Shown: piece by piece, positions 19,650-26,256 of the stretch
How the letters are laid out: each line of letters begins with the position of its first letter
How positions within the stretch are numbered: the stretch's first letter is position 1
Assembly (NCBI GenBank): GCA_013698195.1
Contig: JACCVK010000358.1
Span: forward strand, 1-26,728
DNA from: Actinomycetota bacterium
GTDB taxonomy: Bacteria; Actinomycetota; Thermoleophilia; Gaiellales; Gaiellaceae
Length of the DNA: 26,728 bases
Direction: 5' to 3'
Notes under the pieces: generated by a model
What the model was told of the DNA's origin: nothing
The model's database searches: none
Seen by the model: only the letters and a program-made list of their open reading frames with translations
Made by a program: the position numbers and the translations under genes

Positions 19650-20843
19650 GTGAACCTCGTCGTCTATGTCTCGGACGCGCTCCGTGCGGATCATCTCGGT
19701 TGCTACGGCGCCCGCTTCCTGAAAACGCGCACCATCGACGAGCTTGCGGCGGGCGGTGTTCGCTTCGACCAGGCCATCAGTGCCGCGGCCTGGACGGCGC
19801 CCTCGATGACCTCGATGGTGACCGGCCTCTACGCCCACCGCCACGGTTACCTGCATTGGGACGTCGAGCTCGATCCTTCCCTCGAAACGATCTTCGGCGC
19901 ATTTGGTCGCTCGGGCTACGAGGTCGGGACGTTCGTGTTCGACCGCAACTACCTCTTCAAGGATCTCCCGGAGGCGAACGTCGCGGGCACGAGCGAGACG
20001 CTCGACGGCGCAATCGCGTGGCTGCGCGGGCACCGCGACCGGCCCTTCCTGCTCTTCTTCCACAACTGGGCGACCCACATGCCCTACGACATCCGCCACT
20101 CGGAACGCGGAGACTGGCTCGCGGCGAAGGAGGAGGTCATATCCGGGATCCAGGGCGACTCGGCCTCGGCGCTCGAGGCGACGCGGGAGGCCTACCGGCA
20201 AGCGGTGGAGCGCCAATCGGAGGTTCTCGTCGCCTCGCTCCTCGAGGAGCTTGACGCGCTCGGTCTCCGCGAGAGCACTGCAGTCGCATTCCTCTCGGAC
20301 CACGGCGAGTCGTGGGGCGAGCGGTTCGAGGACAAGCGGGACGTCCAGGGCGTGTACCACATGCACGGGGCGACGCTGCACGACGAGGTCGTCCAGATCC
20401 CGCTCATCCTCTCGTCCCCCGGGCGGCTCGACTCGCAGGTCGTGTACTCGCAGGTGCGCTCGGTCGACCTCGCGCCGACGCTGCTCGAGCTCGCGGGCAT
20501 TCCGGCCGGCGAGCTGGACGGCGAGTCGCTGCTCTCGCTCGTCGACGCGGGCGAGGAGGGCGACCGCCCCGCAATCCTCGCCGGGACAGATCGCGGCGCC
20601 CTCACCCAGCTTGCCGTCCGCCTCCCGCCGTGGAAGCTCATCGTCGACATCGAGACGGGGGAGGAGACCGTGTATCGCCTCGATGTGGATCCGCGCGAGC
20701 GCTCACCCCGATCCTCGGCCGAGGTTCCGGCGGAGATCCGCGACCTCCTCTACCGGGAGCTCGAGTCGGTCGAGCGTCGGGAGCTGACGCGGGAGGAGGA
20801 AGCGGTCGTGACGAAACGTCTTGCCGACCTCGGCTACCTCTGA
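19650..20843 (+). CDS. Sulfatase-like / alkaline phosphatase superfamily protein with Thr at the nucleophile position
   Basis: VSDALRADH, AWTAPSMTSMVTG, THMPY, SDHGE, HGATL..E...PLI, VDLAPTLL, C-terminal RLADLGY. No signal peptide. GTG 19650. Confidence 0.85.
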   Translation: MNLVVYVSDALRADHLGCYGARFLKTRTIDELAAGGVRFDQAISAAAWTAPSMTSMVTGLYAHRHGYLHWDVELDPSLETIFGAFGRSGYEVGTFVFDRNYLFKDLPEANVAGTSETLDGAIAWLRGHRDRPFLLFFHNWATHMPYDIRHSERGDWLAAKEEVISGIQGDSASALEATREAYRQAVERQSEVLVASLLEELDALGLRESTAVAFLSDHGESWGERFEDKRDVQGVYHMHGATLHDEVVQIPLILSSPGRLDSQVVYSQVRSVDLAPTLLELAGIPAGELDGESLLSLVDAGEEGDRPAILAGTDRGALTQLAVRLPPWKLIVDIETGEETVYRLDVDPRERSPRSSAEVPAEIRDLLYRELESVERRELTREEEAVVTKRLADLGYL

Positions 20844-20850
20844 TGCTCTC

Positions 20851-21753
20851 GTGACCGGCCTGTCGACGCTCCCGGCGACTCTCTATGCGCGGATGTACTT
20901 CATCCGACGTTTCGAGGAGACGCTCCTCGACCTCTTTGCCCAGGGGAAGCTCGTGGGCACGACGCACACGTACATCGGGCAAGAGGCAAACGCTGTCGGC
21001 ATCGTCGACCACCTCGAGCCCGAGCGCGACGTCGTCTTCTCGAACCACCGCTGCCACGGCCACTACCTCGCCTTCACCGACGACGCGTTCGGCCTGCTCA
21101 GCGAGGTCATGGGCAAGGCAACGGGCACGTGCGGTGGCAAGGGTGGAAGCCAGCACCTGTGCCGAGGGAACTTCTACTCGAACGGCGTGCTCGGCAGCAT
21201 CGTCCCCGTGGCGACCGGGATTGCGCTCGCGGAGAAGAAGAAGGGCACGGGCGCCGTCTCGACCGTGTTCCTCGGCGACGGCACGCTCGGCGAGGGCGTC
21301 ACGTACGAGTCGCTCAACATGGCGTCTCTCTGGCAGCTTCCGGTCCTCTTCGTCGTCGAGAACAATCACTACGCGCAGTCGACGCCGATCGAGCTCGAGC
21401 TCGCCGGCTCGATCGCGGCGCGCGGGTCGGCGTTCGGCGTCGAGGTCGCCGAGCTCGACACGACGGACGTGGCCGAGGTACACGAGACGGCAGGTTGGGC
21501 CGTAGCCCGGATCCGCGAGACGGGCGAGCCGTTCTTTCTCGTGCTGCACACCTACCGCTTCAGTCCGCACTCGAAGGGCGACGACAATCGCGATCCGGGC
21601 GAGATCGAGAAGCGGCGCGAGCGAGATCCGCTCCAGATCGCAGGCGACCGGCTCGGTCCGGCCGAGCGGGAGGGAATCGAGCAGGCCGCCGAGCAGCGAC
21701 TTGCCGAGACAGTCGCCGCGGCAGACGAAGCACCGGCTGCGGAGGCAGCGTGA
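20851..21753 (+). CDS. ThDP-dependent dehydrogenase E1 alpha subunit (PDH/acetoin DH-like)
   Basis: IRRFEE, GTTHTYIGQEA, SNHRCHGH, GGSQH, GDGTLGEG...ENN (ThDP motif), YRFSPHSKGD. GTG 20851 lies 7 nt after the sulfatase stop. Confidence 0.92.
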   Translation: MTGLSTLPATLYARMYFIRRFEETLLDLFAQGKLVGTTHTYIGQEANAVGIVDHLEPERDVVFSNHRCHGHYLAFTDDAFGLLSEVMGKATGTCGGKGGSQHLCRGNFYSNGVLGSIVPVATGIALAEKKKGTGAVSTVFLGDGTLGEGVTYESLNMASLWQLPVLFVVENNHYAQSTPIELELAGSIAARGSAFGVEVAELDTTDVAEVHETAGWAVARIRETGEPFFLVLHTYRFSPHSKGDDNRDPGEIEKRRERDPLQIAGDRLGPAEREGIEQAAEQRLAETVAAADEAPAAEAA

Positions 21754-22781
21754 GCGCTCCCTCCCACAAGCGCTGCGTCCAGGCGCTGAACGAAGGACTG
21801 CACGAGGTGTTCGCGGAGCGCGACGACGTCTATCTCCTCGGCGAGGACGTGCTCGACCCGTACGGCGGTGCGTTCAAGGTGACGCAAGGCCTTTCCGACG
21901 CCTTCCCCGATCGCGTGCTGACGACGCCGATCAGCGAGGGCGGCCTCTTCGGGGTGGCGGCCGGGATGTCCCTACGAGGACTGCGCCCCATCCTGGAGAT
22001 CATGTTCGGCGACTTCATCGCCCTCGGCCTCGACCAGGTTGTCAACGGGATCTCGAAGTTCCGCGAGATGTACGACGACCAGGTGACTGTGCCGCTCGTC
22101 GTCCGGACGCCGATGGGCGGGCGCCGCGGCTACGGGCCGACGCACAGCCAGTCGCTCGAGAAGCTTCTGCTCGGTATCCCGAACATCTGCGTCGTCGCCG
22201 CGAGCGAGTGCCACGATCTCGGCGGGCTGCTCGCGAACGCCGTGGACGACGACCGCCCCGTGTTCTTCATCGAGAACAAGCTCATGTACGGGCGGCCGAA
22301 CCGGCGTCCGGAGGAGGGACACATCGGCGAGCTCGCCGTCCGGGAGACCGGGACGCGATACCCGGCGCTCACGTTCTCGGGCACGGACTTCACCGAGGCG
22401 AGCGCCACGATCGTGACGTACGGCGGGATGGTGCCCATCGTGCTCGATGCAGTCACCGAGCTCATCCTCGAGCGGGAGCTCTTCTGCGAGGTTGTCGCGC
22501 TCTCCCAGCTCCTGCCGATGGAGCTTGAGCCGGTCTTCGAGTCCGTTGCGCGAACGGGTGCGCTCGTCACGGTCGAGGAGGGAACCTTGACCGGCGGCTT
22601 CGGCGCGGAGATCACCGCTCGGGTTCAGGAGGAGGCCTGGAGCGACCTGCGCCGCCCGGTGCAGCGCGTGGCGGCGCGCGACGGGATCATCCCGTCGGCG
22701 CGGCCGCTCGAGGACGCGATGCTGCCGAGCGCGGGCGACGTCGTCGAGGCGGTCGTCGCGCTCGAGGCCGTGCGAAGCTAG
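21750..22781 (+). CDS. ThDP-dependent dehydrogenase E1 beta subunit
   Basis: LLGEDV.DPYGGAFKVT, TTPISE, LRPILEIMF.DF, GYGPTHSQ, VEEG...GGFGAEI. GTGA overlap with E1 alpha; GGAGG RBS at 21741-21745. Confidence 0.92.
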   Translation: MSAPSHKRCVQALNEGLHEVFAERDDVYLLGEDVLDPYGGAFKVTQGLSDAFPDRVLTTPISEGGLFGVAAGMSLRGLRPILEIMFGDFIALGLDQVVNGISKFREMYDDQVTVPLVVRTPMGGRRGYGPTHSQSLEKLLLGIPNICVVAASECHDLGGLLANAVDDDRPVFFIENKLMYGRPNRRPEEGHIGELAVRETGTRYPALTFSGTDFTEASATIVTYGGMVPIVLDAVTELILERELFCEVVALSQLLPMELEPVFESVARTGALVTVEEGTLTGGFGAEITARVQEEAWSDLRRPVQRVAARDGIIPSARPLEDAMLPSAGDVVEAVVALEAVRS

Positions 22782-22788
22782 CAAGGTC

Positions 22789-24348
22789 ATGCTCGAGATC
22801 GTCCTGACGCGCGAGGACGCGAACACGGAGTTCGCGCTGCTTGCCGAGTGGCTTGTCGAGGACCGCGCCGAGGTCGCGCAGGGGCAGCCCGTCTGCGTCG
22901 TGGAGACGACAAAGGCGACGGTCGAGATCGAGTCGCCGGGTGCCGGGAGTCTCGTGCAGCTCTACGACGACGGCATCGAGGTCGAGCTTGGCAAGACGAT
23001 CGCGGTCGTCGCCGAGAGCGCGGACGAGCTCGAGACAGCGATCGCCCGCCGCGAGCCGAGATCTGCGGCCGAGTCCAAGCCGACCGACAGCAAGGCGACG
23101 AAGAAGGCGATCGAGCTCGCGGAACGCCATGGCATCGACCTCGCCTCGATCGAGAAGCGCGGCTTCATCACGGAGAAGGACGTCGAGGCAGCGATCGCGA
23201 AAGCCGCCGCGACTGCCGGCCCGTCCACACAACCCGCACTCGCCGGCATCTCGACAGCCGGCGTGTCGCTCCCCGAGTCGCTCGACCTCGACGAGGACGC
23301 CGGCCGGCTCGACGAGGGGTTCTTCGAGTCGCTGCGCACCGACCCCGAGGCGTTCCGCGCGCTTTCCTCGGACGAGAAGATCGAGCGCTACCGCGAAAAC
23401 GGGGCACAGATCGGCGAAGGCGTCGCCTTCGGCCTGCGAACCATCTTGGTGGCTCCTCGCATCGTCGTCTCGCCTGGTGTTGCCATCGGCCCGGACGGCA
23501 CTGTGGTCTGCGAGGAGCTGGTCGCGATCGGCGAGCTCACCCAGTTCGGACCGGATCTCGATCTCCGCTGCCGCCGTGCGTATATCGGCGCGGGCGTCTG
23601 GGCTGGGAGGTCGATCAGGATCGGCGGCGGCGGTCACCGCGACCCGTGGGCGACTCTCGCGGTCGGCGACCTTGCGTTCATCGGTGACGAGGCGTTCATC
23701 AACGTCTGCCGGCCCGTGCTCATCGGCCGCGAAGCGTTCGTGACCATGCGGTCGATGATCGTCACCCACAACATCGGCCACTCGCTGCTCGAAGGCTTCG
23801 AGAACCGGTTCGCTCCGGTCGTGCTCGAGGATCGCGCTCAGCTCGGGCTCGGCGCGGTGCTCTATGCGGGAGTGCGGATCGGCGCCGAGGCGATCGTCGC
23901 CTCGAACTCGTACGTCGTGGGCGACGTTCCGGCACGCGCCTTCGCGATCGGTGTCCCCGCCAAGGTCACGGGCAGTGCCGCGCACACGCTCTCCCGCTCC
24001 CGGCAGGCCGAGCTCGCGCGAAGGATGGTCGACGAGCTGCACGAGCTCCTCGCGCTTCGCGGACACGACGTCTCAGCGGTCAGCGACGGGGACGGGCGAG
24101 GGTTCGACGTCGAGGGGACGCGCGTCTACTTCACGCCGAGCTACGGCGGCGGCGGTGACAGCCCGGCCGTGGTGTTGACGCTCGAGCGCGCAGGAGACGT
24201 TCCCGATGGAGTCGGCGTGCTTGACCTGCTCGGACGGCAGGTGCACGGGAGCGGCGGAATCGTTCTCGACTCGGTCCGCGAGTTTTGCCGCAAGCGCGGG
24301 ATCCGCTTCGAGCCTGGCCCCTGGCGGTATCAGGGCGGTCTCATCTAG
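22789..24348 (+). CDS. Lipoyl domain + E1/E3-binding domain + left-handed beta-helix acyltransferase + unknown C-terminal domain fusion
   Basis: VVETTKATVEIESP (lipoyl Lys42, nt 22912). KATKKAIELAERHGIDLASI...ITEKDVE is PSBD-like. Hexapeptide repeats follow, then VTHNIGH...APVVLEDRAQLGLGAVLYAGVRIG..AIVASNSYVVGDVP....IGVPAKV (maltose/WcaF-type LbH). Confidence 0.88.
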   Translation: MLEIVLTREDANTEFALLAEWLVEDRAEVAQGQPVCVVETTKATVEIESPGAGSLVQLYDDGIEVELGKTIAVVAESADELETAIARREPRSAAESKPTDSKATKKAIELAERHGIDLASIEKRGFITEKDVEAAIAKAAATAGPSTQPALAGISTAGVSLPESLDLDEDAGRLDEGFFESLRTDPEAFRALSSDEKIERYRENGAQIGEGVAFGLRTILVAPRIVVSPGVAIGPDGTVVCEELVAIGELTQFGPDLDLRCRRAYIGAGVWAGRSIRIGGGGHRDPWATLAVGDLAFIGDEAFINVCRPVLIGREAFVTMRSMIVTHNIGHSLLEGFENRFAPVVLEDRAQLGLGAVLYAGVRIGAEAIVASNSYVVGDVPARAFAIGVPAKVTGSAAHTLSRSRQAELARRMVDELHELLALRGHDVSAVSDGDGRGFDVEGTRVYFTPSYGGGGDSPAVVLTLERAGDVPDGVGVLDLLGRQVHGSGGIVLDSVREFCRKRGIRFEPGPWRYQGGLI

Positions 24349-24764
24349 TGGCCGCCCCGGAGGCCGTCGAACGACTCGCGCAGCTCGCCCTCTTTGCCGA
24401 TCTCCGCTGGCCCGAGCTCGAAGCGGTCGCACACACTTTCGACGAGGAGGTCTTCGCCCAAGGCCAGCGGGTGCTGCGGCAGGGGATCACCGGTGGCTCG
24501 TTCTACGTCATCGTCGAGGGCGACGCCGCGGTCGTGATCGACGGCCAGGAGCGCGCACGCCTCGGGCGAGGCGACTTCTTCGGGGAGATCTCCGTCCTCC
24601 TCGGTGGCGTGCCGATCGCCGACGTGCGTGCCGAGACCCTCCTCCGCTGCCTCGTCCTGCCGGGCCCCGAGCTCGAAGGGTTCCTGCTCGAGCATCCGCC
24701 GGTCATGCTCCGCATGCTCCAGGCCGTCGCCCGTCGGCTCCGCGACGCGAGCCGGTGGAGCTAG
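24348..24764 (+). CDS. Stand-alone cyclic-nucleotide-binding (Crp-type) domain protein
   Basis: LFADL, VLRQG..G.SFYVIVEG, LGRGDFFGEISVL. GTG overlaps the preceding TAG (TAGTG). No HTH. Confidence 0.85.
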   Translation: MAAPEAVERLAQLALFADLRWPELEAVAHTFDEEVFAQGQRVLRQGITGGSFYVIVEGDAAVVIDGQERARLGRGDFFGEISVLLGGVPIADVRAETLLRCLVLPGPELEGFLLEHPPVMLRMLQAVARRLRDASRWS

Positions 24765-24768
24765 AGGC

Positions 24769-26256
24769 TTGAAGCCGTTCCCGCCCGGCGAGTACCCGGT
24801 CCTCGTCGTCGGGAGCGGGCCGGGCGGCCTGCAGGCGAGCTACTGCCTCCGGCGACTTGGCGTCGACCACGCCGTGCTCTCTGCCGACGATGGCCCCGGC
24901 GGGATGTTCCAGCGCTTCCCGCTCTTCGAGCGCCTCATTAGCTGGACACACGCAGGCGCAGACGCGGAGCGTGGGACGCGCGAGTACGAGCTCCACGACC
25001 AGAACAGCCTCGTCGCCGACGACCCCGCGCTCGGCGCGCTCGTTCCAGGCCAGCTTGCGGATGGGCACCGGCGACCGTCGCGAGACGAGATGGTCGCGGC
25101 CATGCGCTCGTTCGCCGAGCGCGCGCCCATCCCGGTGCGCTACGAGTGCCGCTGGGAGTCGACCAAGCAGGAAGACTCGGCTTACGTGCTCGCGACGAGC
25201 GACGGGGAGTACCGCTGTCGCGCTGCGGTCTTCGCCATCGGTATGACCCAGCCGTGGATACCCCCGATCCCGGGCCTCGAGCTCGAGCAGCACTATGTCA
25301 ACGTCGACTGCGCTCCGGATCGCTATCGCGGCAGGCGCGTCGTCATCGTCGGCAAGCGCAACTCGGCGTTCGAGATCGGCGAGGCGATCTCACGCCAGGG
25401 ACTGCGCGAGCTGACTCTCGTATCTCCGCGCTCGCCCGACCTCGGCCGCCTCGCGCGCTCGCCGCTCCGGCCCTGGTATCTGACGACGTACGACGAGCAC
25501 GTGCGCGGCGCGCCGGGACGATTCGTCCTGAACGCCTCGGTCGACCGGGTCGAACATCGCGAGGGCGGCTTCGTCGTCCACGCACTCGACCCGACTCGGT
25601 CGGAGCCGTTACTGCTGGAGGCCGACGACGTCATTGCCGCCACCGGCTTCTCGACGCCGTTGCAAGATCTGCCGGAGCTCGGCGTCGCGACCGTGCGGGA
25701 GGGGCGGCTACCCGCACTAAGCGCATTCTGGGAAAGCGTGACGGTGCCGGGCCTCTTCTTTGCAGGGAACGTCAGCGACGCGGCCCCGGGGCTCCGCAAG
25801 CACGGCGTCGCGAGCCTCTCGACGATGGTCGGCGGATTTCGCTACAACGCACGCGTTCTTGCGAGGCATTTGGCGGAGACGCTTTTCGGGATGTCCTCGG
25901 AGCGGCCGCGCATCGAGCGAGACTGCATCTCGGCCTTCCTGCTGCACGAGTTGAACCACTCACCCGAGCTCGCCTTCCAGAAGGGCTACCTCGCCCGCGT
26001 GCTGCGCGCGTCTGACGACGAAGGCGCGATCCTCGACGAGGGGATTCTTCCGCTCGAGGTCTTCGTGGACGGCTCCGCTGACGGTGTCGCAATCACGCTC
26101 GAGTTCGACGCGGAGGAGACGATCAGGCCGGTGGTCTACGTGCGGCACGATGGCGTGCTGCACGAGGAGCTGCTGGCGCCGCACCCGCTCCGTCGCTATG
26201 ACGGGCAGCCCTATCTCGAGGACGTCGAGAAGCTCCTGCGGCCGCTGCTCCGTTAG
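24769..26256 (+). CDS. FAD/NAD(P)-dependent oxidoreductase, FMO/FOXRED2-like
   Basis: VLVVGSGPGG (FAD), VVIVGKRNSAFE (NAD(P)), VIAATGF, GLFFAGN, GFRYNAR. TTG 24769, 4 nt after the cNMP gene stop. Confidence 0.85.
   Translation: MKPFPPGEYPVLVVGSGPGGLQASYCLRRLGVDHAVLSADDGPGGMFQRFPLFERLISWTHAGADAERGTREYELHDQNSLVADDPALGALVPGQLADGHRRPSRDEMVAAMRSFAERAPIPVRYECRWESTKQEDSAYVLATSDGEYRCRAAVFAIGMTQPWIPPIPGLELEQHYVNVDCAPDRYRGRRVVIVGKRNSAFEIGEAISRQGLRELTLVSPRSPDLGRLARSPLRPWYLTTYDEHVRGAPGRFVLNASVDRVEHREGGFVVHALDPTRSEPLLLEADDVIAATGFSTPLQDLPELGVATVREGRLPALSAFWESVTVPGLFFAGNVSDAAPGLRKHGVASLSTMVGGFRYNARVLARHLAETLFGMSSERPRIERDCISAFLLHELNHSPELAFQKGYLARVLRASDDEGAILDEGILPLEVFVDGSADGVAITLEFDAEETIRPVVYVRHDGVLHEELLAPHPLRRYDGQPYLEDVEKLLRPLLR

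What the first reader, a model, noticed from the sequence alone, without database searches (positions are those of the whole stretch)
22789..24348. E2-like protein whose acyltransferase core is replaced by a hexapeptide (LbH) acyltransferase
Seen: an intact lipoyl domain (ETTK, Lys42), a peripheral-subunit-binding-like domain (about 23092-23196), then an LbH domain (about 23395-23967) with a candidate catalytic His in VTHNIGH (H327/H331). No CAT-like E2 core (DHRxxDG) is present. Established: normal E2 is lipoyl-PSBD-CAT-fold, and both E2 cores and LbH acyltransferases form trimers with active sites between subunits. Inference: either (a) the LbH is a non-homologous replacement of the E2 transacylase, or (b) it takes the acyl group straight from acyl-dihydrolipoamide and places it on a sugar or amine acceptor, bypassing acyl-CoA. 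I do not know of a characterised protein with this architecture.
Basis: partly seen in the sequence, partly recalled or inferred. Interest (0 to 1): 0.9.

Follow-up and report, generated by a model that had tools for sequence, protein, structure and literature searches.

The report
Lipoyl swinging arm fused to LbH acyltransferase
This soil-bacterium gene is real and conserved: it joins the lipoic-acid "swinging arm" of a pyruvate-dehydrogenase E2 subunit to an unrelated beta-helix acyltransferase and always follows its own E1 enzyme, which points to an undescribed way of moving an acyl group from a 2-oxo acid onto a sugar-like acceptor without coenzyme A.

Summary
That domain has no fold match in the PDB. 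There is no CAT-type E2 core.

It is not a chimera. About 1000 full-length homologues exist, and contig pieces from two separate soil studies bridge every domain junction.

In 55 members from three phyla (26-80% identity), Lys42, Thr326-His327 and a basic C-terminal tail are invariant or nearly so. E1 alpha/beta lie directly upstream in almost every locus.

- One lineage nested inside the family carries an ACP-like domain in place of lipoyl+PSBD.
- Distant members sit beside PIG-L deacetylases in nonulosonic-acid glycan clusters.
- Some of those clusters also hold a lipoyl-PglD_N-LbH fusion served by the same E1 pair.

Option (a), a CoA-forming non-homologous E2, is not excluded. The acyl group and the Gaiellales acceptor are unknown.

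This scan met the same family earlier in at least nine other genomes. I found no paper on it.

The parts
19650..20843 (+). Alkaline-phosphatase-superfamily (sulfatase-fold) protein. First gene of the Gaiellales four-gene core. It has T-A-P-S-M where sulfatases have C/S-x-P-x-R.
   Evidence: Pfam Sulfatase 1.7e-35. The alignment to sulfatase structures places Thr at the formylglycine position. Found directly upstream of E1 in 75 of 86 related loci. GTG start at 19650.
20851..21753 (+). E1 alpha (ThDP-binding subunit), PDH/acetoin type. The start may be 20821 or 20851.
   Evidence: Pfam E1_dh 5.9e-56. TIGR03182 gives 250 bits, below its 394-bit cut-off. The nearest structure is human PDH E1 alpha. 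The motif P-H-S aligns with G-H-S, which from memory holds His263.
21750..22781 (+). E1 beta. Its start overlaps the E1 alpha stop (GTGA).
   Evidence: Transket_pyr 1.7e-27 and Transketolase_C 8.6e-23. G-P-T-H-S-Q aligns with the conserved His motif of E1 beta structures. Overlap seen.
22789..24348 (+). The finding: a 519-aa lipoyl-PSBD-LbH-CTD protein.
22789..23019 (+). Lipoyl domain (residues 1-77). The Lys42 codon is 22912-22914.
   Evidence: Biotin_lipoyl 3e-10. Lys42 invariant in 55/55. NCBIfam hits are to the lipoyl N-termini of AcoC, SucB and AceF E2s. pLDDT is about 90.
23095..23214 (+). Divergent peripheral-subunit-binding domain (residues 103-142).
   Evidence: E3_binding E=0.22 here, but 13 of 55 aligned members hit PF02817 in the same columns, best 7e-15. 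Two helices, 105-114 and 129-142, in the model.
23404..23979 (+). Left-handed beta-helix acyltransferase domain (residues 206-397). The candidate catalytic His327 codon is 23767-23769. Helices at residues 160-205 precede it.
   Evidence: WcaF-family model 3e-16. 3ECT, 2IC7 and 1KQA sequence hits. Foldseek hits to 8VRM, 3NZ2, NeuO, MAT, GAT and LpxA. T326 and H327 invariant.
23980..24345 (+). C-terminal alpha/beta domain (residues 398-519) with a near-invariant basic tail. Function unknown.
   Evidence: Domain-only model pLDDT 95. No PDB match: Foldseek best E=0.7, VIA-align best Z=4.3. In AFDB the top matches (ranks 1, 2 and 4) have it attached to LbH proteins. Conservation.
24348..24764 (+). 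Stand-alone cyclic-nucleotide-binding domain protein (138 aa). Its GTG start overlaps the TAG stop of the finding. Accessory, not core.
   Evidence: cNMP_binding 3.7e-14. Frame assigned from codon-position GC. Present in 12 of 86 related loci.
24769..26256 (+). Flavoprotein of the Pyr_redox_3 class with weak YpdA/ArsO-like similarity. Accessory, not core.
   Evidence: Pyr_redox_3 2.7e-31. ArsO 2.5e-20 and YpdA 8.7e-16, both far below their cut-offs. Always found together with the cNMP gene, in 12 of 86 loci.

Best explanation
The gene encodes a lipoyl carrier fused to its own unloading enzyme.

Shown:
- The domain order is lipoyl-PSBD-LbH-CTD.
- The lipoyl Lys and the LbH His are invariant across the family.
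- The gene is tightly linked to, and translationally coupled with, an E1 alpha/beta pair. That pair keeps the two His residues which, from memory, E1 enzymes use to acylate lipoamide reductively.
- The same genome has LipA and an E3 elsewhere.

Inferred mechanism:
1. Lys42 is lipoylated.
2. E1 alpha/beta decarboxylate a 2-oxo acid (a pyruvate-like substrate, identity unknown) and load the acyl group onto the lipoyl arm as S-acyl-dihydrolipoyl.
3. The arm swings into the groove between LbH subunits that normally holds the pantetheine arm of acyl-CoA or acyl-ACP.
4. His327 activates a hydroxyl or amino group of a non-CoA acceptor, which takes the acyl group.
5. The dihydrolipoyl arm is re-oxidised by the housekeeping E3, which together with E1 is recruited through the PSBD.

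In other phyla the acceptor is most likely an amino sugar freed by a neighbouring PIG-L deacetylase in nonulosonic-acid or polysaccharide pathways. In Gaiellales, including this window, the partner is instead a Thr-nucleophile alkaline-phosphatase-superfamily enzyme. It may unmask the acceptor by removing a phosphate; this step is speculative.
For: Module conservation. E1a-E1b-LipLbH are adjacent and co-oriented in 81-84 of 86 loci. The same holds in Chloroflexota, Acidobacteriota and other metagenome loci, with 4-8 nt overlaps.

Invariant residues. K42 and T326-H327 are invariant in 55 members at 26-80% identity. The E1 His residues are kept. E3, LipA and a canonical E2 lie elsewhere in the genome.

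Carrier swap. P0265 has an ACP-like N-terminus. PP-binding scores E=0.0046, all 33 weak PDB hits are ACPs, and its D-S-L Ser aligns with the ACP D-S-L motif, where from memory the phosphopantetheine is attached. The same LbH+CTD follows. It nests inside lipoyl-bearing members (clade supports 100/100 and 98/89). It lies beside PIG-L and near an FkbH-type loader in a NeuB cluster.

PIG-L association. PIG-L is present in 13 of 53 distant loci, often directly adjacent.

Shared E1. L105, L101 and L099 also hold lipoyl-PglD_N-LbH fusions that keep the sugar-nucleotide-binding domain. L105 and L099 have a single E1 pair, so a CoA-forming step would make the second lipoyl domain needless.

Two LbH classes. 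Two different LbH classes have been fused to lipoyl domains. This fits use of the generic donor groove.
Against: - No biochemistry exists: lipoylation, the E1 substrate and the acceptor are all untested.
- The loop after His327 and the C-terminal tail are conserved across very different gene neighbourhoods (glycan clusters, a PlsC/luciferase context, the Gaiellales phosphatase operon). This would fit a universal co-substrate such as CoA better than varied acceptors.
- The Gaiellales operon has no sugar-pathway gene nearby.
- LbH enzymes of this class normally bind CoA.
- The ACP-bearing member sits on a long branch (1.8), so its placement is less sure.
- The ACP assignment rests on weak scores below Pfam's cut-off.
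Confidence: 0.55

Rival explanations
1. Non-homologous E2: the LbH trimer replaces the CAT-fold core and passes the acyl group from dihydrolipoyl to CoA. In that case E1 + LipLbH + E3 is simply an unusual 2-oxoacid dehydrogenase complex that makes an acyl-CoA.
For: - Lipoyl-PSBD order exactly as in E2.
- LbH relatives bind CoA in the inter-subunit groove (3NZ2, 4ISX, 3IGJ among the hits).
- A catalytic His is present, as in the E2 core.
- The catalytic loop and tail are conserved across unrelated contexts, as expected for one common co-substrate.
- The Gaiellales operon needs no further transferase under this reading.
Against: - Clusters that hold two lipoyl-LbH fusions of different classes with one E1 pair would not need the second lipoyl domain if acyl-CoA were released.
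- The ACP-for-lipoyl swap on the same LbH+CTD makes little sense for a CoA-forming enzyme.
- The recurrent PIG-L neighbour supplies an acceptor amine.
- The genome already has a canonical E2/E3 pair.
Confidence: 0.25
2. Same carrier logic but a different loading chemistry. The E1 pair cleaves a ketol (acetoin-type) or a ketose phosphate (QncN/QncL-type) rather than a 2-oxo acid, so the arm carries acetyl or glycolyl from a non-acid donor. The neighbouring phosphatase-superfamily enzyme would act on the phosphorylated by-product or substrate. This rival concerns only the donor and can be combined with either unloading route.
For: - E1 alpha falls below the PDH equivalog cut-off (250 vs 394 bits) and also hits transketolase and DXP-synthase models.
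- The QncN/QncL/QncM and SclQ1-4 precedent uses a ThDP enzyme plus a lipoyl domain to take a C2 unit from a ketose phosphate (PMC6335953).
- One or two alkaline-phosphatase-superfamily genes precede E1 in Gaiellales.
Against: The closest solved relatives of both E1 subunits are true 2-oxoacid E1s: human PDH, Thermus 2-oxoacid dehydrogenase and Pyrobaculum PDH. No residue-level specificity test was possible.
Confidence: 0.12
3. An ordinary acetyl-CoA-dependent sugar O-acetyltransferase whose N-terminal lipoyl/PSBD region is a vestigial or purely structural or regulatory appendage, working without E1.
For: The LbH domain alone resembles WcaF, MAT and GAT enzymes. Some database entries lack the N-terminal domains.
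Against: - Lys42 is invariant in 55/55, and E39 and T40 are near-invariant, over 26-80% identity.
- E1 alpha/beta are coupled to the gene in nearly every locus across phyla.
- Two apparent stand-alone forms turned out to have lipoyl/PSBD coding sequence just upstream, so they are gene-call or frameshift artefacts.
- The other short forms are scattered among lipoyl-bearing members in the tree.
Confidence: 0.05
4. Assembly chimera or frameshift artefact joining an E2 fragment to an unrelated acetyltransferase gene.
For: The window comes from a fragmented MAG (372 contigs, 74% complete).
Against: Hundreds of independent full-length homologues exist, including on Mb-scale contigs. Exact contig pieces from two separate studies bridge all junctions. 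The AF2 model has pLDDT 92.
Confidence: 0.01

Closest known systems
Dihydrolipoyl acyltransferase (E2) of PDH, OGDH, BCKDH and acetoin dehydrogenase complexes with alpha2-beta2 E1
   Same: N-terminal lipoyl domain with the modified Lys, then a flexible linker, then a PSBD. The gene lies directly after E1 alpha/beta. E3 is presumably needed for re-oxidation. The catalytic part is probably trimeric with a His base.
   Different: The CAT-fold catalytic domain (PF00198, DHRxxDG) is absent. An unrelated left-handed beta-helix plus a new C-terminal domain takes its place. The probable acceptor is not CoA.
Maltose / galactoside / WcaF-type hexapeptide O-acetyltransferases (e.g. 3ECT/3NZ2 VCA0836, 2IC7, 1KQA) and the Pcryo_0619 N-acetyltransferase (8VRM)
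   Same: LbH fold, with the His in the loop that projects from the helix (T-H motif) aligned. A G-V-P-A-K motif ends the helix.
   Different: Those enzymes are about 180-200 aa, free-standing, and use diffusible acetyl-CoA. This protein carries its own lipoyl carrier, a PSBD and an extra C-terminal domain.
LpxA / LpxD (acyl-ACP-dependent LbH acyltransferases), with LpxC as the preceding deacetylase
   Same: An LbH enzyme takes the acyl group from a protein-tethered thioester arm rather than from CoA. The deacetylate-then-reacylate logic parallels the PIG-L + LbH pairs seen in distant members.
   Different: The carrier here is a fused lipoyl domain loaded by a ThDP E1, not a free ACP loaded by fatty-acid synthesis. 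Sequence similarity is only at the superfamily level.
QncN/QncL/QncM (quinocarcin) and SclQ1-4 (scleric acid) (PMC6335953)
   Same: A dedicated ThDP E1/transketolase-type enzyme loads a lipoyl domain, and the acyl unit is handed to something other than CoA for biosynthesis.
   Different: There the unloading domain is a normal E2-type acyltransferase and the acceptor is an ACP in a natural-product pathway. Here it is an LbH, and no ACP is encoded in the operon.
Lipoyl-PglD_N-LbH fusions
   Same: Lipoyl carrier fused to an LbH acyltransferase. Same E1 partner, and found in the same glycan clusters.
   Different: A different LbH class (PglD/NeuD with the N-terminal sugar-nucleotide domain), about 350-380 aa, and without the C-terminal domain of the present family.

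Membership tests
E2 dihydrolipoyl acyltransferase (2-oxoacid dehydrogenase complexes) | Lipoyl domain with a conserved lipoyl-lysine | tested here: met
   PF00364 E=3e-10. Lys42 in E-T-T-K is invariant in 55/55. No biotin-type M-K-M motif.
E2 dihydrolipoyl acyltransferase (2-oxoacid dehydrogenase complexes) | Peripheral-subunit-binding domain | tested here: met
   Weak in this protein (E=0.22). It is homologous by alignment to members that hit PF02817 (13/55, best 7e-15), and the model shows two helices.
E2 dihydrolipoyl acyltransferase (2-oxoacid dehydrogenase complexes) | CAT-fold catalytic core (PF00198, DHRxxDG) | tested here: not met
   No PF00198 hit at E<=1, and an LbH occupies that position. 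The genome's true E2 is on another contig.
E2 dihydrolipoyl acyltransferase (2-oxoacid dehydrogenase complexes) | Transfers the acyl group to CoA | not testable with these tools
   Needs an enzyme assay. Comparative evidence leans against it.
Hexapeptide-repeat (LbH) acyltransferases, MAT/GAT/WcaF class | Left-handed beta-helix built of hexapeptide repeats | tested here: met
   NF007797 3e-16 at residues 260-395. Hexapep hit in 54/55 members. Foldseek probability 1.0 to 8VRM, 3ECT and 3NZ2.
Hexapeptide-repeat (LbH) acyltransferases, MAT/GAT/WcaF class | Catalytic His in the loop after the T-H motif | tested here: met
   His327 aligns with the His of 3ECT and 2IC7 (taken from memory to be the catalytic His) and is invariant.
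Hexapeptide-repeat (LbH) acyltransferases, MAT/GAT/WcaF class | Homotrimer with active sites between subunits | not testable with these tools
   Only monomer prediction was available.
Hexapeptide-repeat (LbH) acyltransferases, MAT/GAT/WcaF class | Acetyl-CoA as the acyl donor | not testable with these tools
   CoA contacts in this class are mostly main-chain (from memory), so sequence cannot decide.
QncN/QncL/QncM-type lipoyl-dependent C2 transfer | ThDP enzyme + lipoyl domain + E2-type acyltransferase domain + dedicated ACP | tested here: not met
   E1 and the lipoyl domain are present, but there is no E2-type domain and no ACP gene in the operon.
Lipoyl-carrier / LbH-CTD family (this family, undescribed) | Lipoyl-PSBD-LbH-CTD order, T-H catalytic motif, basic R-K-R-G-I-R-F-x-P-x-x-W-R-Y tail, E1 alpha/beta directly upstream | tested here: met
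   All these features are present in the window protein.

The most novel reading that the evidence does not exclude
A further lipoate-dependent enzyme system, beyond the five complexes counted in PMC6067878 and that paper's LbpA system. A ThDP E1 loads an acyl group onto a lipoyl arm that is fused to an LbH transferase. The arm then serves directly as the acyl donor for tailoring sugars or other metabolites, bypassing acyl-CoA and ACP altogether. The carrier is interchangeable with ACP within the family. In nonulosonic-acid clusters two such transferases may share one E1 and install both N-acyl groups.
Probability: 0.5. Interest if true: 0.85.

Novelty: new variant of a known kind. Interest (0 to 1): 0.75.

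Why it matters
A 2018 review-style introduction counts only five characterised lipoate-dependent complexes (PDH, OGDH, BCKDH, acetoin dehydrogenase, glycine cleavage), and that paper itself adds a sulfur-oxidation carrier (PMC6067878).

A lipoyl arm that feeds an LbH transferase would be a new use of the cofactor and a new class of acyl donor for glycan and metabolite tailoring. It would link 2-oxoacid pools directly to cell-surface chemistry. It would also explain orphan E1 pairs in polysaccharide and nonulosonic-acid clusters across several phyla.

The family is large: about 1000 sequences, and 173 GTDB species in the Gaiellales-type clade alone. It is entirely from uncultured or unstudied organisms and is annotated only as "biotin/lipoyl-containing protein" or "isoleucine patch acetyltransferase". 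It should be easy to test in vitro with four proteins: E1 alpha, E1 beta, the lipoyl-LbH protein and an E3.

Tried and rejected
- Chimera or misassembly: rejected.
- Biotinyl rather than lipoyl domain: rejected. The motif is E-T-T-K, all NCBIfam N-terminal hits are E2 lipoyl regions, and an E1 partner is present.
- His331 as a catalytic residue: rejected, since it is not conserved.
- The downstream flavoprotein as a dedicated E3 substitute: not supported as a core part. It and the cNMP gene occur in only 12 of 86 loci, and its glycine-rich motif reads G-S-G-P-G-G-L with no Cys. From memory, YpdA has its active Cys in the matching motif.
- Stand-alone LbH+CTD homologues as evidence of a CoA-using ancestor: two of those checked (P0174, P0183) have lipoyl/PSBD coding sequence upstream and are gene-call artefacts. 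The other short forms are scattered in the tree.
- Fold of the C-terminal domain: no convincing match in the PDB (Foldseek, VIA-align wide), the AFDB or the ESM Atlas.
- Literature: seven searches found no paper on the architecture.
- The search for related loci with the 55-member alignment failed for lack of a conserved stretch. Narrower alignments were used instead.
- E1 substrate from sequence: not resolved.
- My recollection that some AcoC proteins are lipoyl + alpha/beta-hydrolase fusions, a possible precedent for a non-CAT E2, could not be checked here and is not used as evidence.
Full report
**1. What is in the sequence**

The window is 67.6% GC, so I chose real genes by codon-position GC. 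ORF 22789-24348 (+) is open and codes for 519 aa.
- Pfam finds a Biotin_lipoyl domain at residues 18-73 (3e-10), weak Hexapep repeats, and an E3_binding match at 110-133 with only E=0.22.
- NCBIfam places a WcaF-family LbH acetyltransferase model on residues 260-395 (3e-16). It places the lipoyl N-termini of AcoC-, SucB- and AceF-type E2s on residues 4-148.
- No 2-oxoacid_dh (CAT-fold) core is present.
- By sequence, the LbH part is nearest to VCA0836 (3ECT), DapH-type enzymes, and maltose and galactoside acetyltransferases. His327 aligns with the His of 3ECT and 2IC7 that I take, from memory, to be the catalytic His of this class.

**2. The operon**

Six genes are packed head to tail on the + strand:
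- a sulfatase-fold alkaline-phosphatase-superfamily protein (19650-20843);
- E1 alpha (20851-21753);
- E1 beta (21750-22781, GTGA overlap with E1 alpha);
- the lipoyl-LbH protein (22789-24348);
- a 138-aa cNMP-binding protein whose GTG overlaps the TAG stop (24348-24764);
- a Pyr_redox_3 flavoprotein (24769-26256).

A divergent HxlR regulator follows. E1 alpha keeps the His in P-H-S that aligns with G-H-S of human E1 alpha (from memory, His263). E1 beta keeps the His of G-P-T-H-S-Q. From memory, these are the residues used for reductive acylation of lipoamide. The MAG (2.05 Mb, 372 contigs, 74% complete) has a canonical E2 with an E3 beside it on another contig, a LipA, and four other E1 alpha matches. 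Lipoylation and E3 activity are therefore available in trans.

**3. Real, not chimeric**

- The word-indexed search returned 999 homologues at E<=0.001. The 120 listed are essentially all full length at 70-85% identity. They are named only "biotin/lipoyl-containing protein" or "acetyltransferase-like isoleucine patch superfamily enzyme", mostly from Gaiellaceae/Thermoleophilia MAGs.
- The exhaustive representative search found 157 cluster representatives at E<=1e-30, with full-length members down to 26-30% identity. Named members come from Acidobacteriota and Chloroflexota as well.
- A pattern scan of GTDB species genomes found 173 genomes. The 80 best are all Gaiellales/Thermoleophilia MAGs, some on Mb-scale contigs.
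- Public soil metagenome runs from different studies hold the E1-LipLbH stretch almost word for word (0.96 and 0.92 of sampled words). Their zero-mismatch contig pieces bridge the lipoyl/PSBD, PSBD/LbH and LbH/C-terminal junctions.

**4. Conservation and structure**

I aligned 55 full-length members (26-80% identity to the window protein).
- Invariant columns are K42, T326, H327, G336, G388, P390 and G487.
- E39, T40, A107, D131 and a basic C-terminal tail (R497, R501, K502, G504, P509, W512, R513, Y514) are at or near 90%.
- The PSBD columns are shared with members that carry the canonical S-P-A-A-R-R-L-A...G-S-G-P motif. 13 of 55 members hit PF02817, best 7e-15.

AlphaFold2 with this alignment gives pLDDT 92. 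Only the linker 92-99 is disordered. The model shows a lipoyl barrel, two PSBD helices, a helical lead-in, the beta-helix, and then a separate alpha/beta domain at 398-519.

Foldseek against the PDB matches the LbH to Pcryo_0619 (8VRM), VCA0836, NeuO, MAT, GAT, AntD and LpxA.

The C-terminal domain, modelled alone (pLDDT 95), has no convincing match: Foldseek best E=0.7, and VIA-align best Z=4.3 against 48,161 chains. In the AFDB its top matches (ranks 1, 2 and 4) have it attached to LbH proteins.

**5. Gene neighbourhoods**

*Gaiellales.* In 86 related loci, mostly Gaiellales, the counts were LipLbH 86, E1b 84, E1a 81, sulfatase-fold gene 75, and cNMP and flavoprotein 12 each, always together. 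The core is therefore four genes, and the two downstream genes in this window are accessory. A second alkaline-phosphatase-superfamily gene (PF01663, about 463 aa) lies upstream on the same strand in 47 loci. In the more divergent loci it sits directly next to the sulfatase-fold gene. It is missing from this window, but a 36-residue fragment at 69% identity sits at a contig edge of the MAG.

*Outside Gaiellales.* The E1a-E1b-LipLbH trio recurs without the phosphatases.
- In a Chloroflexota locus it sits between a GFO_IDH_MocA oxidoreductase and a small LbH plus a DegT aminotransferase, among glycosyltransferases and Bac_transf.
- In another locus E1 alpha and beta are fused, and Wzc/Wza, Wzy, PIG-L and Polysacc_synt_2 surround it.
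- In 53 distant loci (31 longer than 5 kb) the commonest neighbours are E1 (24), PIG-L (13, often directly adjacent), NeuB (7), Polysacc_synt_2 (6), CMP-transferase (5), a PlsC-type acyltransferase (5), DegT (4) and a luciferase-like monooxygenase (4).

**6. New evidence on the direction of transfer**

(i) *Carrier swap.* One representative, P0265, matches the window protein over residues 133-515 (32% identity, E=1.8e-33). It begins not with lipoyl+PSBD but with an ACP-like domain.
- PP-binding scores E=0.0046, below the Pfam cut-off.
- All 33 weak PDB hits are acyl carrier proteins.
- Its D-S-L Ser aligns with the ACP D-S-L motif, where from memory the phosphopantetheine is attached.
- In a maximum-likelihood tree of the LbH+CTD region it nests inside lipoyl-bearing members (clade supports 100/100 and 98/89), though on a long branch.
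- Its gene follows a PIG-L gene in a NeuB / CMP-transferase / PseG-like cluster. That cluster also holds an FkbH-type protein, an ATP-grasp enzyme, an E1 pair and a lipoyl-PglD_N-LbH fusion. From memory, FkbH-type proteins load glyceryl units onto ACPs.

(ii) *Shared E1.* Loci L105 and L101 hold both a lipoyl-LbH-CTD protein and a lipoyl-PglD_N-LbH protein. L105 and L099 have a single E1 pair, and PIG-L lies beside these genes.

(iii) *Two LbH classes.* At least two unrelated LbH classes have thus acquired lipoyl domains.

Taken together:
- A carrier that can be lipoyl or ACP, on a transferase placed next to an enzyme that frees an amine, is most simply an acyl donor, as acyl-ACP is for LpxA and LpxD.
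- A PglD-type partner that keeps its sugar-nucleotide domain and has its own lipoyl arm would be pointless if the neighbouring LbH-CTD protein released acyl-CoA.

**7. What argues the other way**

- The loop after His327 and the C-terminal tail stay conserved across contexts as different as nonulosonic-acid clusters, a PlsC/luciferase context and the Gaiellales phosphatase operon. Varied acceptors would be expected to vary that loop. A universal partner (CoA, the carrier arm, or E1/E3) would not.
- The LbH class normally binds CoA.
- An LbH with CoA in its usual groove and dihydrolipoyl in the acceptor site would be a chemically natural E2.

I therefore keep option (a) at about 0.25. The identity of the acyl group is open. 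E1 alpha is PDH/acetoin-like but below the equivalog cut-off, and a ketol or ketose-phosphate donor as in QncN/QncL (PMC6335953) cannot be excluded.

For the Gaiellales acceptor I can offer only an analogy. Other clades pair the transferase with a deacetylase. Gaiellales pair it with a sulfatase-fold protein in which Thr replaces the formylglycine Cys and Met replaces the Arg (T-A-P-S-M). That suits a phosphoryl-transfer enzyme which might unmask a hydroxyl.

**8. Comparison with known systems**

The protein fails one defining feature of E2 (the CAT-fold core), so it is not an E2, although it probably works like one up to the unloading step. It meets the sequence and fold features of LbH acyltransferases. 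Its quaternary structure and donor could not be tested. It is not a QncL-type protein.

Seven literature searches found nothing on a lipoyl-LbH protein. The library lacks most subscription journals, so absence there is not proof.

Earlier agents of this scan reached the same general reading on at least nine other genomes, including the four-gene Gaiellales operon and PglD-type fusions. I re-derived the shared points independently. To my knowledge from those notes, the new points here are the ACP carrier swap with its tree placement, the two-fusion/one-E1 clusters, the unmatched fold of the C-terminal domain, and the read-level check against chimerism.

**9. Verdict**

This is a new variant of a known kind: lipoate- and E1-dependent acyl transfer with a non-homologous, probably CoA-independent, transferase. 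Interest 0.75.

Noticed in passing
window 19650-20843: A sulfatase-fold protein with T-A-P-S-M where sulfatases have C/S-x-P-x-R, so Thr replaces the formylglycine residue and Met replaces the Arg. It is probably a phosphoryl-transfer enzyme rather than a sulfatase. It is the first gene of the conserved Gaiellales four-gene core (75 of 86 loci).
   Followed up: partly
window 24348-26256: A stand-alone cNMP-binding protein and a Pyr_redox_3 flavoprotein always travel together. They follow the lipoyl-LbH gene in only 12 of 86 related loci, sometimes about 4 kb away. The flavoprotein's glycine-rich motif reads G-S-G-P-G-G-L with no Cys; from memory, YpdA has its active Cys in the matching motif.
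   Followed up: partly
L010:4952-6343 and 46 other loci; G000 contig C292:2-109: A second alkaline-phosphatase-superfamily gene (PF01663, about 463 aa) lies upstream of the operon in 47 Gaiellales loci, sometimes followed by a Cupin_2 gene. It is absent from this window. A 36-residue fragment at 69% identity sits at a contig edge of the MAG.
   Followed up: partly
L099:1641-16588 (also L100): A nonulosonic-acid cluster holding NeuB, a CMP-transferase, a PseG-like gene, PIG-L, an ACP-LbH-CTD protein, an unknown 283-aa protein, an ATP-grasp enzyme, RtcB, E1 alpha/beta, a lipoyl-PglD_N-LbH fusion, a 627-aa FkbH-type protein and a CBS-NTP transferase. That gives two carrier-tethered LbH transferases in one pathway. 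RtcB is an unexpected member.
   Followed up: partly
L105:8427-12752; L101:2-2754: Two lipoyl-LbH fusions of different classes (LbH-CTD and PglD_N-LbH) lie in one locus beside PIG-L. L105 has a single E1 pair.
   Followed up: yes
L117, L122, L131, L133, L137: In a sub-clade the lipoyl-LbH gene is followed by a PlsC-type acyltransferase (PF01553), and in several loci by a luciferase-like monooxygenase. This hints at a lipid-type rather than a sugar acceptor in that clade.
   Followed up: no
G000 contig C140:3140-4495 (-): A second dihydrolipoyl-dehydrogenase-like frame (329 bits) has one TGA and one TAG inside the match. It may be a pseudogene or carry sequencing errors.
   Followed up: no
L095:5-361; L096:719-964: Database proteins that look like stand-alone LbH+CTD forms (P0174, P0183) have lipoyl/PSBD coding sequence just upstream. 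These are truncated gene calls or frameshifts, so domain counts taken from gene calls understate the fused architecture.
   Followed up: yes
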